This document shows, piece by piece, positions 35,186-39,617 of a stretch of 64,000 bases of DNA. The position numbers and the translations under genes are program-made. Source of the stretch: Patescibacteria group bacterium (GTDB taxonomy: Bacteria; Patescibacteriota; Patescibacteriia; JACRDY01); assembly GCA_041671565.1 (NCBI GenBank), contig JBAZBH010000003.1, positions 572-64,571 on the forward strand, written 5' to 3'. Numbering within the stretch: the stretch's first letter is position 1; every line of letters starts with the position of its first letter. The notes under the pieces were generated by a model, which did no database searches, was not told the DNA's origin, and saw nothing but the letters and a program-made list of their open reading frames with translations.

Positions 35186-35605
35186 GTGAGAATTCCCGTT
35201 ACTTTGGGCCTAACTATGACCACCTACATCCAAAACAAAAAAACCCACCTTCTCCGCCAAATCGGCGGATTCGGCGGGCAAGCAAAACAAAAAGACAACG
35301 GGCGCGAGACAAGTCGGGTTTTTAGTTATCGGCATTTAAATATCGGTTTAATCTGCCTGATAATTTTGACCGGATTTTTTTATTTAACCCAAGTCAACGC
35401 TTCGGCGGTCAAAGGCTATATTATTGCTGACCTAGGCGCGAAACTGGAAGCGGCCCAGACCGAGAACCGGAAACTGGAGTTAACCAGCCAGTCTTTGCAG
35501 TCAGTTGGTGATTTGGCAGAGAAAACCAAGGAGCTCGGTTTAGTGGACGCCGGTCAGGTGGAATATCTGCAAGCGCCGGGCGGGGTGGTGGCGGTGGCGA
35601 GGTAG
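35186..35605 (+). CDS. FtsL-like cell division protein (single transmembrane helix plus coiled coil)
   Basis: Position after mraZ-rsmH, single transmembrane helix, periplasmic coiled coil. Confidence 0.5.
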   Translation: MRIPVTLGLTMTTYIQNKKTHLLRQIGGFGGQAKQKDNGRETSRVFSYRHLNIGLICLIILTGFFYLTQVNASAVKGYIIADLGAKLEAAQTENRKLELTSQSLQSVGDLAEKTKELGLVDAGQVEYLQAPGGVVAVAR

Positions 35606-35608
35606 GGG

Positions 35609-35690
35609 GTAGCTTGTAGCTTGTAGCTTGTAGCTTGTAGCTTGTAGGTGGTAGGTGGTAGACGGACTAGGTCCGTTTTTTTGTTTGGTA
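35609..35690 (+). terminator. tandem (gtagctt)x5 repeat followed by hairpin acggactaggtccgt plus a T-run
   Basis: Direct repeat then stem-loop and TTTTTTT after ftsL. Confidence 0.5.
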
Positions 35691-35746
35691 AAATAATCAA
35701 AATTGTTATAAAATGTCTAAAATTAGAGTAAAAATAGCTAAAATCA

Positions 35747-35775
35747 TTGACAGAAATATAGTTTTACGCTATGAT
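35747..35775 (+). promoter_or_regulatory. near-consensus promoter TTGACA-17-TATGAT upstream of the DGR target gene
   Basis: Hexamers at 35747-35752 and 35770-35775; AGGAGG ribosome-binding site at 35957-35962 before the ATG at 35970. Confidence 0.5.
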
Positions 35776-35969
35776 AACCAGTTAGTACTTTCAACAAAGA
35801 CAAATTGGTCCTGGCTTTCTTTTGGTTATATTTATACAATAAGTTAATCAAAAGAAGGCCAAGGACAACCCTTTGGCCATTTGTCGTGTCTGTCTGTTAT
35901 TGGCAGTAATATGCTCGGCAATGGGGTCGAGTGTAAAACTGTTTGACAGCAGATGCAGGAGGAAGTCAG

Positions 35970-36584
35970 ATGTCCGATATCACTGTGGAACAGTTGGGCG
36001 AACTTATCGCCCAGGCAAAGTCTAAGGACGGGAAGCCGCCGCGAGTTACTCGCGAAAATCTGCAAACCTTCTTGCGCAATCCAGACGGATTCGTCGCGGG
36101 CGGCACGCAGTATCTCCGTCTCCTCCCAGGCCAGCCGCTCACCATCGGTCCGACCAGCGGTTCCCGAATCATCGCCAATGCGGTCGATGTGTTCAAGGCT
36201 GGTATTGACGGCGATTTCAACAACTGGGGAGTTAACCGACCGGCGAAAGAGACCGAAGAAATGGTGATCAGCCCTCCCTACGAGCTGGTGACCAACGGCA
36301 AATTCGCCGAGATTTTTGGCTCGTTGTCGGCAGACCCGCGCCGACTGTGCTGGACGCAGGACCAGATCATTAAATATGTGGTCACGCACCCTGACCAACT
36401 CGGCGCCAACAGGAACTTTTTTCTGACCGAATCGGGTGGGGAGTTCTTCGTGGTCGATGTGTATGTGTACGACGACGGTCGGCTCAACGCCGATGTCGGC
36501 CGGTTCGACCTTGCCCGTGTCTGGCGCGCCGAGGACCGGCATCGGTTCTTCGCTCCGCAACTGGCGAATCCTTTGGCCGTTTAG
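35970..36584 (+). CDS. DGR target (variable) protein; the variable repeat encodes its C-terminal ~40 residues
   Basis: Last 122 nt of the coding sequence form the VR; good ribosome-binding site; C-terminal FFVVDVYVYDDGRLNADVGRFDLARVWRAEDRHRFFAPQL is the diversified segment. Confidence 0.7.
   Translation: MSDITVEQLGELIAQAKSKDGKPPRVTRENLQTFLRNPDGFVAGGTQYLRLLPGQPLTIGPTSGSRIIANAVDVFKAGIDGDFNNWGVNRPAKETEEMVISPPYELVTNGKFAEIFGSLSADPRRLCWTQDQIIKYVVTHPDQLGANRNFFLTESGGEFFVVDVYVYDDGRLNADVGRFDLARVWRAEDRHRFFAPQLANPLAV
36444..36565 (+). repeat. DGR variable repeat (VR)
   Basis: 122-nt match to 36908-37029 with 16 mismatches, each at a TR adenine (11 A->G, 3 A->C, 2 A->T). Confidence 0.85.
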
Positions 36585-36907
36585 GCCCCTGGACGCTTTG
36601 TCACTCTTTCCCTTGGGCTCTCAAGATGCACATGCACTTGAAGTCCAAGGGATTTTTTTATACAATAACTATGCAGTTTGGAAAATTTGCGGCTACGGCT
36701 TCAAATCAAAACTGTTGAAGATCATTATTCCAGAATTTCGTTGGATATGTCTTGCGAAAGAGTGAAAATGCTTTCCATAATAAAAAACAGCCAGTTGGTG
36801 CCAGCAGCTAGTGGACTTCTATGTCCCAAATAAAATTCAACCCTAAGTCCGTCCGCCAACCGGCGGACGGACAAGGGGCGGTGACTAAAGACGGCTGGTG
36901 GCACATT

Positions 36908-37029
36908 TTCTTCGTGGTCAATGTGAATGTGTACGACGACGGTCAGCTCAACGCCAATGTCAACCGGTTCGACAATGCCAATGTCTGGAACGCCGAGAAC
37001 CGGCATCGGTTCTTCGCTCCACAACTAAC
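36908..37029 (+). repeat. DGR template repeat (TR), rich in AAC/AAT codons in the VR frame
   Basis: Invariant non-A positions and adenine-only differences versus the VR; not inside a credible gene. Confidence 0.85.
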
Positions 37030-37038
37030 TGTTTTCTC

Positions 37039-37422
37039 TCATCTATTATTAGGGGTGGGAGTTTTTTGTAAAAGACCTTTCTTCCACCCGCCCAGCATCC
37101 GACCGATCTCATCTAGTTTTTGAGACAACTCCGTATATTTATCGGTATGGATACATTTGTTTTCCCAAGCCAATTGGATGAAAAATTTCAGAATATCCAG
37201 TCGCGGTATAACCTTACCCAGTCCGACTATTTTTTGTTCTGGCGGCAAGTAGGAAGTGGCATAAGTTAATTCCAGTAAATTAAGAAAAACCGAGTCAATT
37301 TTTTGACCCAGGCCGAAACGCTCTACCTTGGGAAAATTACGATGTAAGACCTGCCAATATTGATAAGCTTCTTTTTCCTTGGTTATTACCACGGGTAATC
37401 CCCGGTTAGTACTAAAAGTCAT
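37039..37422 (-). CDS. avd: Avd-like accessory variability determinant (four-helix-bundle / 23S rRNA IVS protein family)
   Basis: 127 aa; ..YQYWQVLHRNFPKVERFGLGQKIDSVF..LAWENKCI..LSQKLDEIGRMLGGW matches the four-helix-bundle family pattern; lies between the TR and the RT. Confidence 0.6.
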   Translation of the reverse strand: MTFSTNRGLPVVITKEKEAYQYWQVLHRNFPKVERFGLGQKIDSVFLNLLELTYATSYLPPEQKIVGLGKVIPRLDILKFFIQLAWENKCIHTDKYTELSQKLDEIGRMLGGWKKGLLQKTPTPNNR

Positions 37423-38474
37423 ATGAATAAACAGTTAGTTAATTATGATCAAATTATCTCAATAGATAACCTCCTAGCTGCTTGGCGAGGATTTATTACT
37501 GATAAGAAATCACGGCCGGATGTTCAAGAGTTCTCCTTAAAACTGATGGATAATATTTTTCAGCTCCACGACGAATTGTCATCCGGCCGTTATCGCCACG
37601 GCCCTTATTCAACTTTCCATATTTATGACCCTAAACATAGGGTTATCAGCAAGGCATTGGTTAGAGATAGGTTAGTCCACCATGTAGTTTTTAATGAGCT
37701 TTATCGCATTTTTGATCCCGTATTCATTTACCATTCCTATTCTTCCCGGGTCGCTAAGGGCACACATTTGGCGGTTCTTAACTTATTCCATTGCCTGCGC
37801 CAAGTCAGCCATAATTACACCCAGACCGTCTATATCCTCAAATGCGATGTTAAAAAGTTCTTCTGGAGTGTGAATCACCAGAAGCTTTTGGCCATAATCC
37901 AAAACAAAATTAAAGACGAGAAGTTCTTTTGGCTAATCAACGAGATAATAGGTAGTTTTTCGTCGGCAGGTGAAATTGCTAAGGGGGGGGGGGATTAAAG
38001 GGACTGCCCATTGGCAATGCTACTTCGCAGATTTTTGCTAACATATATTTAAATCAACTAGATCAATTTATTAAGCATCGACTTAAAGCCCAGCACTATT
38101 TTCGCTACGCCGATGACTTTGTTATTGTTAATAAAAGTTCGGATGATTTAAACTCCACCTTAACACAAATTAGAGAGTTTTTACAGCGGGAATTATTACT
38201 CGAGCTTCATCCCGGCAAGGTTTCCATTCAAAAGTTTAGGCAAGGCGTAGATTTCCTTGGCTATGTTATTTTGCCGCGTTATCTTGTCCTGCGGACTAAA
38301 ACCAAAAAACGGATGCTAAAGAAAATTCCTTTGAGAAAGTTGGCGTTAGAGCAGGGTTTAATTACCCCAGAATCATTTAACCAATCTTTGCAGTCATATT
38401 TGGGAATTTTAAAGCACTGCCGGGGACGCAAGATAGAGCAAATAATACGGAGAATTATTGATTTACAGCCATAG
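37423..38474 (+). CDS. DGR reverse transcriptase, reading frame interrupted by a +1 shift at an 11-G tract
   Basis: RT motifs across two frames: RHGPY..FHIYDPKHRVIS..RDRLVHH (frame 1) then GLPIGNATSQIFANIYLNQLD and YFRYADDFVIV (frame 0, to 38474); the two frames join at the G11 run at 37983-37993. Confidence 0.75.
37983..37993 (+). repeat. poly-G homopolymer (11 nt) inside the RT gene
   Basis: 9 or 12 G would give a continuous ~350-aa RT; 11 G truncates it after ...IAKGGGD. Confidence 0.9.

Positions 38475-39617
<1,143 letters not shown>

What the first reader, a model, noticed from the sequence alone, without database searches (positions are those of the whole stretch)
35747..38474. Complete diversity-generating retroelement: target gene with C-terminal VR, TR, opposite-strand avd, and RT
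A 122-nt segment at the 3' end of the ORF 35970-36584 (VR, 36444-36565) matches a downstream non-coding segment (TR, 36908-37029). The 16 differences all fall at adenines of the TR (11 A->G, 3 A->C, 2 A->T), and these adenines sit mostly in AAC/AAT codons. That is the signature of DGR mutagenic homing. An Avd-like four-helix-bundle gene (37039-37422) and a reverse transcriptase (37423-38474) follow. The RT carries DGR-type motifs GLPIGNATSQIFANIYLNQLD and YADD. Adenine-directed diversification is therefore targeted at the last ~40 residues of a 204-aa protein of unknown binding specificity. The cassette sits between a ftsL-like gene and tgt, with its own near-consensus promoter.
Basis: partly seen in the sequence, partly recalled or inferred. 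Interest (0 to 1): 0.9.

Follow-up and report, generated by a model that had tools for sequence, protein, structure and literature searches.

The report
Patescibacterial DGR with slippery RT gene
This is a genuine diversity-generating retroelement of the ordinary Patescibacteria type, which rewrites the last 40 residues of a small binding protein, but its reverse transcriptase gene is broken at an unstable run of 11 G's, and such runs may act as an on/off switch in this clade.

Summary
The repeat is real. VR 36444-36565 and TR 36908-37029 differ at 16 positions, all at TR adenines (P~4e-13). A relative (L001) shows 15/15, and each VR follows its own TR at non-A sites.

Avd (Pfam bAvd, PHROG "Avd protein of DGR") and a DGR-type RT (IGNATSQ, YADD) are present. 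The TR-(avd)-RT order is the standard Patescibacteria architecture.

The element is not "complete" as assembled. The RT is split at a G11 run (37983-37993). G9 or G12 would restore it. A second MAG carries the same element with G10.

In relatives the same RT loop holds (GA)n, (CT)n or poly-G tracts:
- 28 of 47 tract-bearing loci are out of frame, against 0 of 104 without a tract.
- Four elements differ between samples only in repeat number.
- Other relatives carry the tract at the avd/RT junction instead, and none carries both.

Verdict: an ordinary DGR, a new member of a known kind. It has one unreported and testable feature, a likely slipped-strand on/off switch on the mutagenic enzyme.

The parts
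35747..35775 (+). Sigma-70-like promoter of the target gene (TTGACA-17-TATGAT)
   Evidence: It matches 11 of 12 positions and is the best site in the region. L001 has TTTACA-17-TATAGT at the same place. Function is inferred.
35776..35969 (+). Structured 5' leader of the target gene, including a 29-bp hairpin (35886-35956) and the SD GGAGGAAG (35958-35965)
   Evidence: MFE is -73.9 kcal/mol with z = -6.5. Region 35815-35969 is 94% identical to L001, against 83% for the CDS. The hairpin keeps 4 pairs through compensatory changes in 3 sequences. It was found only in these 3 loci. Role unknown.
35970..36584 (+). DGR target gene, 204 aa: an N-terminal helical module of about 45 aa plus a variable-protein domain of about 155 aa
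36444..36565 (+). Variable repeat (VR), residues 159-199
   Evidence: 16/16 mismatches to the TR fall at TR adenines. Orthologues vary at the same codons.
36535..36565 (+). IMH-like 3' end of the VR (CCGGCATCGGTTCTTCGCTCC followed by G/A differences from the TR)
   Evidence: A 21-nt invariant GC-rich stretch is followed by three A>G differences that are identical in the window and L001. Assigned by analogy with BPP-1 IMH/IMH* (PMC5758913).
36609..36659 (+). Strong hairpin plus T7: terminator of the target gene, and a possible counterpart of the post-VR inverted repeat of other DGRs
   Evidence: The hairpin is -28.2 kcal/mol and is followed by TTTTTTT. It is conserved with an indel in L001.
36638..36666 (+). 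Candidate promoter for the TR RNA (TTGAAG-17-TACAAT)
   Evidence: It matches 9 of 12 positions and overlaps the terminator. Weak and inferred.
36667..36907 (+). Conserved non-coding spacer / putative TR-RNA leader
   Evidence: 87-91% identical to L001. An 18-nt hairpin insertion (36849-36872) is present only in the window.
36908..37029 (+). Template repeat (TR)
   Evidence: It is 94% identical to the L001 TR, and the 7 non-A differences between the two TRs are each copied into the matching VR.
37036..37067 (+). Hairpin plus T6 directly after the TR, overlapping the avd stop on the other strand: candidate 3' end of the TR RNA
   Evidence: Terminator-like site. 97% identical in L001. A similar hairpin with a T-run occurs in 19 of 102 related loci, against 1 of 120 controls, so it is not universal.
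37039..37422 (-). avd accessory gene (127 aa)
   Evidence: Pfam bAvd scores 55.7 bits against a cut-off of 40. NCBIfam DivGenRetAVD scores 70 bits, below its cut-off of 80. PHROG 3206 'Avd protein of DGR' gives 2e-18.
37423..37998 (+). RT, N-terminal reading frame (191 codons, motifs 1-3), ending in a stop just after the G-run
   Evidence: RVT_1 matches residues 71-169. The start ATG abuts the avd start (CAT|ATG).
37983..37993 (+). G11 simple-sequence tract in the RT loop between motifs 3 and 4. It puts the gene out of frame.
   Evidence: It is the only G/C homopolymer of 8 or more in the 64 kb. G9 or G12 gives a full-length 349/350-aa RT, while G8, G10, G11 and G13 truncate it. The same tract is in contig L004. 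A second MAG encodes the exact G10 product, 205 aa.
37983..38474 (+). RT, C-terminal part in the +2 frame (motif 4 GLPIGNATSQ, motif 5 YADD, thumb)
   Evidence: RVT_1 profile positions 117-205. The restored 350-aa protein matches PHROG 1423 at 1e-108 and thousands of 340-360-aa Patescibacteria RTs.

Best explanation
The region is a chromosomal diversity-generating retroelement of the Patescibacteria (CPR) type, with architecture target-TR-(avd)-RT.

Proposed mechanism:
- An RNA containing the TR is made. It probably starts near 36673 and ends at the hairpin plus T-run at 37036-37067. (Inferred.)
- The RT, working with Avd, copies it into cDNA and misincorporates opposite template adenines. (Established for BPP-1; inferred here.)
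- The cDNA replaces the VR at the 3' end of the target gene, guided by the GC-rich IMH-like end. (Inferred.)
- This recodes nine AAY/CAG codons on three beta-strands and a loop of a small, divergent lectin-like domain.

What is shown here is the footprint: A-only differences in two lineages, and concerted TR/VR evolution at non-A sites.

In the state sequenced, the RT cannot be made. A G11 run in the permissive loop between motifs 3 and 4 shifts the frame, and a stop follows at once. The tract is unstable: the same element has G10 in another MAG, and relatives show repeat-number polymorphism with identical flanks. The most likely reading is that the element sits in an OFF state of a slipped-strand ON/OFF switch. 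Gain of one G or loss of two would restore the RT and restart diversification. The switch role is inferred, not shown.
For: TR/VR:
- 16/16 mismatches fall at TR-A, P = 4e-13.
- L001 shows 15/15, and all 7 TR-TR differences are mirrored in the cognate VR.
- The orthologues P0002 and P0003 vary at the TR-AAY codons.
- The same target family has A-biased TR/VR pairs in four other RT loci: 19/19, 20/22, 15/15 and 16/16, and 17/20.

Avd.

RT:
- Motif 4 IGNATSQ and YADD are present.
- PHROG 1423 matches at 1e-108.
- Scores for group II intron, retron and DRT models are far below their cut-offs.

Architecture:
- B3 is the CPR norm (PMC5758913).
- avd(-) lies head-to-head with the RT in 124 of 126 loci.

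Frameshift and tract:
- establish the frameshift and which tract lengths restore the frame.
- The G10 allele of the identical element is in a second MAG, and the target protein is identical in both MAGs.
- Among loci with a loop SSR, 28 of 47 are out of frame, against 0 of 104 without one (Fisher P = 3e-18).
- Four elements have 400+400 nt of identical flanks and differ only in repeat number. Two of them are seen both in and out of frame.
- Of 121 dereplicated RT loci, 49 have the SSR at the avd/RT junction, 26 in the loop, and none in both (P = 1.4e-7). There is almost no other G/C or dinucleotide SSR in 912 kb.
Against: - Only out-of-frame alleles (G10, G11) of this particular element were found. 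No G9 or G12 allele is in the protein collection.
- Long G-runs are error-prone in short-read data, and several contigs end at such tracts.
- No read-level data were available, so within-population length heterogeneity and VR microdiversity are untested.
- The VR is identical in all assemblies of this strain. That fits an OFF state but equally fits an inactive element.
- Transcription start and end of the TR RNA, and the promoters of avd and RT, are only consensus matches.
Confidence: 0.7

Rival explanations
1. This is a fully intact, ordinary DGR. The G11 (and the G10 in the other MAG) are homopolymer sequencing or assembly errors, and the true tract is G12 or G9.
For: Poly-G tracts of 10 or more are hard for short-read platforms. 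Contig L004 ends 8 nt after the tract, and several related contigs end at their tracts. Two assemblies of the same element disagree on the length. The rest of the RT is undamaged.
Against: Both independent calls are out of frame, and neither is the in-frame length. Dinucleotide tracts, which are much less error-prone, show the same behaviour in relatives: 28 of 47 out of frame, and repeat number differing between samples with perfectly identical flanks. Loci without tracts are never out of frame (0 of 104).
Confidence: 0.17
2. This is a decaying DGR. The RT is a pseudogene and the cassette is a relic that no longer diversifies its target.
For: Only truncated RT alleles are known for this strain, and the VR is identical in all its assemblies. 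One relative (L130) has lost the RT segment downstream of its tract.
Against: The single lesion lies exactly in a reversible tract. Both RT halves are free of stops and keep every catalytic motif. avd is intact. TR and VR are identical at all 92 non-A positions. The TR still carries its AAY codons. The same tract position is kept across many lineages and is mutually exclusive with a junction tract, which argues for selection rather than decay.
Confidence: 0.08
3. The frameshift is bypassed during expression. Transcriptional slippage or -1 ribosomal frameshifting on the G-run yields a low, constant level of full-length RT, so the tract tunes dosage rather than switching.
For: The required shift is -1 on a run of G's, where tRNA-Gly can re-pair in any frame. 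SSRs of G, GA or CT contain no stop in any frame.
Against: Relatives are found in both wrong frames (+1 and +2), which no single programmed shift corrects. DNA-level length changes are directly observed. No stimulatory structure was looked for or found downstream.
Confidence: 0.05

Closest known systems
Patescibacteria/CPR diversity-generating retroelements (architecture B3 of Wu et al. 2018, PMC5758913; DGR clade 2 of Roux et al. 2021, PMC8144416)
   Same: Gene order target-TR-(avd)-RT with avd on the reverse strand. A single adjacent target. A 350-aa RT that is 50-75% identical to thousands of Patescibacteria RTs. A chromosomal, non-phage context. A small target protein without a known domain.
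   Different: As far as the searchable literature shows, no description of these DGRs mentions simple-sequence tracts in the RT or at the avd/RT junction, or RT genes that are out of frame at them. I could not check whether this target's VR class corresponds to one of the 'UVR1-6' or ungrouped CPR VRs of Wu et al., because the supplements are not held.
Bordetella phage BPP-1 DGR (mtd-avd-TR-brt), the experimental prototype
   Same: A TR/VR pair with adenine-specific substitutions concentrated in AAY codons. The VR is at the C-terminus of the target. There is a GC-rich IMH-like end with a few fixed TR/VR differences, a hairpin downstream of the VR, an Avd four-helix-bundle partner, and an RT with [I/L]GxxxSQ.
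   Different: avd is inverted and lies between TR and RT, so the ~140-nt 'Sp' RNA between TR and brt has no obvious equivalent. Here the TR is followed by a short hairpin plus T-run. The element is chromosomal rather than on a phage. The target is not a tail fibre and resembles lectin folds only weakly. The RT carries an unstable tract.
Slipped-strand phase-variable contingency loci (poly-G genes of Campylobacter and Neisseria; CT/GA-repeat genes of Helicobacter; e.g. PMC6321876, PMC2823697)
   Same: A homopolymer or dinucleotide tract lies inside an ORF. Its length varies between otherwise identical sequences and moves the gene in and out of frame. The tracts have no stop codon in any frame.
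   Different: Known contingency genes mostly encode surface structures, restriction-modification enzymes or receptors. Here the gene is the mutagenic polymerase (or its partner Avd) of a targeted hypermutation system, so the switch would control mutability itself. Reversibility and phenotype are untested.
C-type-lectin-fold DGR variable proteins (Mtd, TvpA 2Y3C, FGE-sulfatase-type targets)

Membership tests
Diversity-generating retroelement | Two near-identical repeats (TR, VR) whose differences fall at adenines of one copy | tested here: met
   16/16 at TR-A, P = 4e-13. The relative L001 shows 15/15.
Diversity-generating retroelement | VR inside (at the 3' end of) a protein-coding gene, with the TR outside the target gene and near the RT | tested here: met
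   The VR covers codons 159-199 of ORF 35970-36584. The TR lies 324 nt downstream of the stop and next to avd/RT.
Diversity-generating retroelement | Reverse transcriptase of the DGR clade (motif 4 [I/L]GxxxSQ, YxDD, about 350 aa, no maturase or endonuclease domains) | tested here: met
   LPIGNATSQ and YADD are present. PHROG 1423 matches at 1e-108 over residues 7-344. The group II model scores 70 and 73 bits against a cut-off of 300, and retron and DRT models are far below cut-off. The nearest relatives all sit beside avd. No DGR-RT-specific curated HMM was available.
Diversity-generating retroelement | Intact RT open reading frame | tested here: not met
   There is a frameshift at G11 (37983-37993) and a stop at 37996-37998. 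The downstream frame has no start codon until 38271. A second MAG has G10, which is also truncated.
Diversity-generating retroelement | Accessory variability determinant (Avd) | tested here: met
   Pfam bAvd scores 55.7 against 40. PHROG 'Avd protein of DGR' gives 2e-18. The NCBIfam equivalog scores 70, below its cut-off of 80.
Diversity-generating retroelement | IMH/IMH* at the 3' ends of VR/TR, and an inverted repeat downstream of the VR | tested here: inconclusive
   A 21-nt invariant GC-rich stretch is followed by three fixed A/G differences shared with L001. A -28 kcal/mol hairpin lies 44 nt after the VR, but it is followed by T7 and may simply be a terminator. Function is not testable here.
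Diversity-generating retroelement | Hypervariability of the VR among strains or within populations, confined to TR-A positions | tested here: met
   Between lineages it is met: the window, L001 and L002 differ at the AAY-derived codons. Within this strain no variation is seen, since the VR is identical in 3 assemblies and 2 MAGs. Read-level data were not available.
C-type-lectin-fold variable protein | CLec/FGE-like fold with the VR on the ligand-binding face | tested here: inconclusive
Slipped-strand phase-variable (contingency) gene | Simple-sequence tract within the ORF whose length sets the reading frame | tested here: met
   G11 lies in the RT. G9 and G12 are in frame, the other lengths are not.
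Slipped-strand phase-variable (contingency) gene | Tract-length polymorphism between otherwise identical sequences, with both ON and OFF lengths | tested here: inconclusive
   This element shows G10 and G11, both OFF. Four related elements differ only in repeat number, and two of them show both ON and OFF lengths.
Slipped-strand phase-variable (contingency) gene | Reversible high-frequency switching with a phenotypic consequence | not testable with these tools
   This needs read-level or culture-based data.
Group II intron / retron | Intron RNA domains with a maturase, or msr/msd RNA | tested here: not met
   Rfam finds no intron or retron RNA in the window. Protein models are far below cut-off.

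The most novel reading that the evidence does not exclude
Patescibacteria DGRs carry a built-in slipped-strand switch. A hypermutable poly-G, (GA)n, (CT)n or (GT)n tract sits either in the RT loop between motifs 3 and 4 or in the overlapping 5' ends of avd and RT. It stochastically turns targeted hypermutation on and off in a population. The window shows one such element caught in the OFF state. This would be a second-order contingency system, a mutable switch controlling a mutator. It would also offer an answer to how DGR activity is restrained in organisms with few regulators.
Probability: 0.5. Interest if true: 0.8.

Novelty: new member of a known kind. Interest (0 to 1): 0.55.

Why it matters
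As a DGR, this adds one more example to a clade known to be rich in them. It also puts a name-less family of more than 1000 clusters on the list of diversified binding proteins, now with a confident structural model.

The more useful outcome concerns regulation. How DGR mutagenesis is controlled in nature is poorly understood. If the unstable tracts in RT and avd are real switches, then the fraction of cells able to diversify is set by repeat slippage. Metagenomic surveys that require an intact RT would then systematically miss OFF-state elements. The link between tract phase and VR diversity could also be tested directly in existing time-series metagenomes.

Tried and rejected
- Invertible avd segment. 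A perfect 12-nt inverted repeat (37023-37034 / 37429-37440) brackets avd. However, inversion would remove the RT start codon, about 0.5 such repeats are expected by chance in 4 kb, and the reverse orientation is fixed in 124 of 126 relatives. Rejected as a switch. A TR-end/RT-start RNA pairing remains possible.
- Extra targets. No other VR-like copy exists in the window.
- Known RNA families. There is nothing at gathering thresholds, and only chance-level hits at E of 1 or less in 35600-37500.
- Group II intron, retron or defence RT. Scores are far below cut-offs.
- First AF2 run on 3 sequences. It was useless (pLDDT 48). The rerun on 90 family members gave pLDDT 90.
- Foldseek against PDB gave no meaningful hit, and afdb50 was unavailable.
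- Phage origin. No relative of the target is in IMG/VR, and the target has no PHROG hit.
- Leader hairpin as a widespread motif. A covariance model found only its three training loci among 96 sources.
- Hairpin plus T-run after the TR as a universal feature. It is present in only 19 of 102 relatives.
- Classification of the junction tracts as lying in avd, in RT or in a UTR. The result was mixed and too rough to build on.
- Paul et al. 2017 and the supplements of Wu et al. 2018 are not held.
Full report
**Observation.** The 122-nt segment 36444-36565, at the 3' end of ORF 35970-36584, aligns without gaps to 36908-37029. There are 16 mismatches, and every one is at an adenine of the downstream copy: 11 A>G, 3 A>C, 2 A>T. 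The downstream copy has 30 A's in 122 bases, so the chance that all 16 fall on A is about 4e-13. Thirteen mismatches change nine codons (residues 163, 165, 171, 175, 177, 181, 183, 186, 189), eight of them AAY in the template. The last three (37021, 37027, 37028) are the same in a related element. They are better read as fixed IMH/IMH* differences than as fresh mutagenesis. No other copy of the repeat exists in the window.

The RT is not one ORF. The frame starting at 37423 ends at 37996-37998 after 191 codons, directly behind a run of eleven G's (37983-37993). Motif 4 (GLPIGNATSQ), YADD and the rest continue in the +2 frame to 38474. That frame is closed by TAA immediately before the G-run and has no start codon until 38271. 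G9 or G12 would give a normal 349/350-aa RT. G8, G10, G11 and G13 truncate it.

**Identity of the parts.**
- The 127-aa reverse-strand ORF passes Pfam bAvd (55.7 bits against a cut-off of 40). It hits PHROG 3206 'Avd protein of DGR' at 2e-18, and falls just short of the NCBIfam equivalog cut-off.
- The restored RT matches PHROG 1423 at 1e-108 across its length.
- The RT has more than 6000 homologues with E below 1e-30, mostly 340-360-aa proteins from Patescibacteria MAGs.
- The RT scores far below threshold for group II intron, retron and DRT models.
- Rfam finds no intron or retron RNA.
- tgt downstream is confirmed. The 'ftsL-like' ORF has no family match.

**Architecture.** The avd and RT start codons abut head to head (CAT|ATG at 37420-37425). 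This looked odd at first, but it is the rule. Wu et al. (PMC5758913) define architecture B3, TR-(avd)-RT, and state that it accounts for 90% of CPR DGRs. In 126 related loci with a detectable avd, 124 have it on the reverse strand directly upstream of the RT. Roux et al. (PMC8144416) place Patescibacteria DGRs in a cellular clade of their own.

**Evidence of activity over evolutionary time.**
- Locus L001, from another sample, has a target 80% identical and sits in a different genomic context, next to a serine recombinase. It carries the same cassette with 15/15 mismatches at TR adenines.
- The two TRs differ at seven non-A sites, and each VR carries its own TR's base at all seven. This shows homing after the lineages split.
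- A third orthologue (L002) varies at the same codons.

**The target.**
- Only three full-length close homologues exist. A profile search of 1.84 billion cluster representatives found 1701 relatives, 1052 of them with E of 1e-10 or less. Nearly all are 150-260 aa, with the match (query residues ~45-200) at their C-terminus.
- No member has a Pfam domain, and no PDB sequence matches.
- Among RT-centred loci, four independent ones encode this family next to a TR with A-biased mismatches: 19/19, 20/22, 15/15 and 16/16, and 17/20. It is therefore a recurrent DGR target family.
- AF2 on a 90-sequence alignment gives pLDDT 90 and pTM 0.77. The VR covers strands 158-166, 172-178 and 192-194 and the loops between them, with variable residues alternating along the strands.
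- I read this as a very divergent lectin-like domain, with the fold assignment unproven.
- There is no signal peptide or membrane segment. The first ~45 residues form a helical module shared with other small proteins whose C-terminal halves differ.

**The G-run is not an isolated accident.**

*The window's own tract.* It is the only G/C homopolymer of 8 or more in the 64-kb window.

*Recurrence at the same loop.* Aligning RT homologues showed GGGG or ERERER peptides at the same loop. At the DNA level these are poly-G or (GA)n tracts.

*Frame status.* I took 151 related loci in which both halves of the RT could be placed.
- 47 have a tract of 8 nt or more in this loop, and 28 of those are out of frame.
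- 104 have no tract, and none is out of frame (Fisher P = 3e-18).

*Polymorphic elements.* Four elements were each sampled in several metagenomes. Each has 400 nt of perfectly identical sequence on both sides of the tract and differs only in repeat number:
- (AG) tract of 20, 18 or 16 nt.
- (CT) tract of 29, 33, 39 or 43 nt.
- 24 or 22 nt.
- 14 or 16 nt.
Two of them are seen both in and out of frame.

*A second tract position.* Relatives lacking the loop tract often have one, mostly poly-G of 8-13, at the avd/RT junction, where the two genes' 5' ends meet or overlap. Of 121 dereplicated loci, 49 have a junction tract, 26 a loop tract, and none both (P = 1.4e-7). Almost no other G/C or dinucleotide tract occurs in 912 kb of flanking sequence.

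*The window's own element is polymorphic.* A second NCBI MAG encodes identical Avd and target proteins. Its RT fragment is 205 aa, and its sequence is exactly the product predicted for G10.

**Interpretation.**
- Shown: this is a DGR. Its RT is out of frame as assembled. The tract length differs between two MAGs. Homologous tracts in relatives are hypermutable and frequently out of frame.
- Inferred: the tract works as a reversible slipped-strand ON/OFF switch, and this population is OFF. This fits the identical VR in all assemblies of the strain.
- The tract is polymorphic in two assemblies, so a sequencing-error explanation cannot be dismissed (I give it about 0.17). It does not explain the dinucleotide tracts of relatives.
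- Pseudogenisation (about 0.08) is disfavoured. The only lesion sits in a reversible tract, and everything else is intact: avd, both RT halves, and TR and VR identical at all 92 non-A sites.
- Expression-level slippage (about 0.05) cannot correct both wrong frames seen in relatives.
- Four literature searches found nothing that links DGR RTs to simple-sequence repeats or phase variation. Key subscription papers could not be read.

**Other anatomy (inferred function only).**
- The promoter at 35747-35775 matches 11/12.
- The 5' leader is highly structured (z = -6.5). Its distal 155 nt are more conserved than the coding sequence (94% against 83%). It contains a 29-bp hairpin supported by four compensatory pairs in three sequences. 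The hairpin is restricted to this subfamily.
- A -28 kcal/mol hairpin plus T7 lies after the target gene.
- A weak promoter overlaps that hairpin.
- A hairpin plus T6 lies directly after the TR. It is 97% conserved in L001 but present in only 19 of 102 relatives.
- The target gene is 54-59% GC, against 39-42% for avd and RT.

**Verdict.** This is a real, typical Patescibacteria DGR, so a new member of a known kind, and by itself of modest interest. The frameshift sits in a hypermutable tract that recurs across the clade. That makes a specific, unreported and readily testable hypothesis: repeat slippage gates DGR mutagenesis.

Noticed in passing
Loci L010, L014, L017, L018, L020-L022, L026, L028, L030, L034, L036, L043, L046, L050-L052, L054, L055, L060-L065, L067, L070-L074, L078, L080, L083, L084, L096-L101, L106-L108, L111, L114, L141 (16-60 nt upstream of RT residue 8): In relatives that lack the loop tract, a poly-G of 8-13 nt lies where the divergent avd and RT 5' ends meet or overlap. 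Sometimes it is (GT)n, (CT)n or (GA)n instead. In a rough frame analysis, avd or RT often lacks an in-frame start across the tract. Several contigs begin or end exactly at it.
   Followed up: partly
window 35886-35956 (also L001 5917-5987, L002 5908-5980): A 29-bp hairpin lies just upstream of the target gene's Shine-Dalgarno sequence. In only three sequences it has four compensatory base-pair changes and one broken pair. The distal leader (35815-35969) is more conserved than the coding sequence. The hairpin was not found in 93 other loci. Role unknown.
   Followed up: partly
window 35609-35647: A perfect heptamer tandem repeat, GTAGCTT x5.6, starts a few bases after the stop codon of the ftsL-like ORF and is followed by GTAGGTG units. 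Every unit contains TAG.
   Followed up: no
window 37023-37034 and 37429-37440: A perfect 12-nt inverted repeat (AACTAACTGTTT / AAACAGTTAGTT) joins the 3' end of the TR to codons 3-6 of the RT and brackets avd exactly. In L001 it is kept with one change that stays compatible with G-U pairing. It could pair TR and RT sequences in a long transcript, or it could be chance.
   Followed up: partly
window 35970-36104 (residues 1-45); proteins P0004-P0008: The N-terminal helical module (MSxITVEQLGELIAQAK...RVTRENLQAFLRNP) is shared at about 70% identity with other small proteins. Their C-terminal halves are unrelated in sequence and end in ...W..CRFLAVRK, which looks like a different DGR variable domain.
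   Followed up: no
L002 5993-6598 and 6604-7116 (GCA_964550465.1): This relative has two tandem paralogues of the target gene. No avd or RT lies within 6 kb on either side, so the locus is either a remote target or has lost its DGR core.
   Followed up: no
L001 4304-5638 (minus strand) versus window 35186-35730: Homology between the two cassettes starts at about window 35815. Upstream, the window has the mraZ-rsmH-ftsL-like cluster, whereas L001 has a large serine recombinase. The cassette therefore occupies different genomic sites and may be mobile.
   Followed up: no
window 36849-36872: A GC-rich hairpin (TCCGTCCGCC-AACC-GGCGGACGGA) sits in the VR-TR spacer. It is absent from L001 (an 18-nt indel) in an otherwise 87-91% identical region.
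   Followed up: no
L130 3541-3700: In this relative the RT sequence jumps from the (AG)7 tract directly to the C-terminal thumb region (...ESFNQSLQSYYGILKHC...). This is an internal deletion that starts at the repeat.
   Followed up: no
window 35850-36600 versus 37050-38550: The target gene is markedly more GC-rich (54-59%) than avd and the RT (38-42%) within the same cassette.
   Followed up: no
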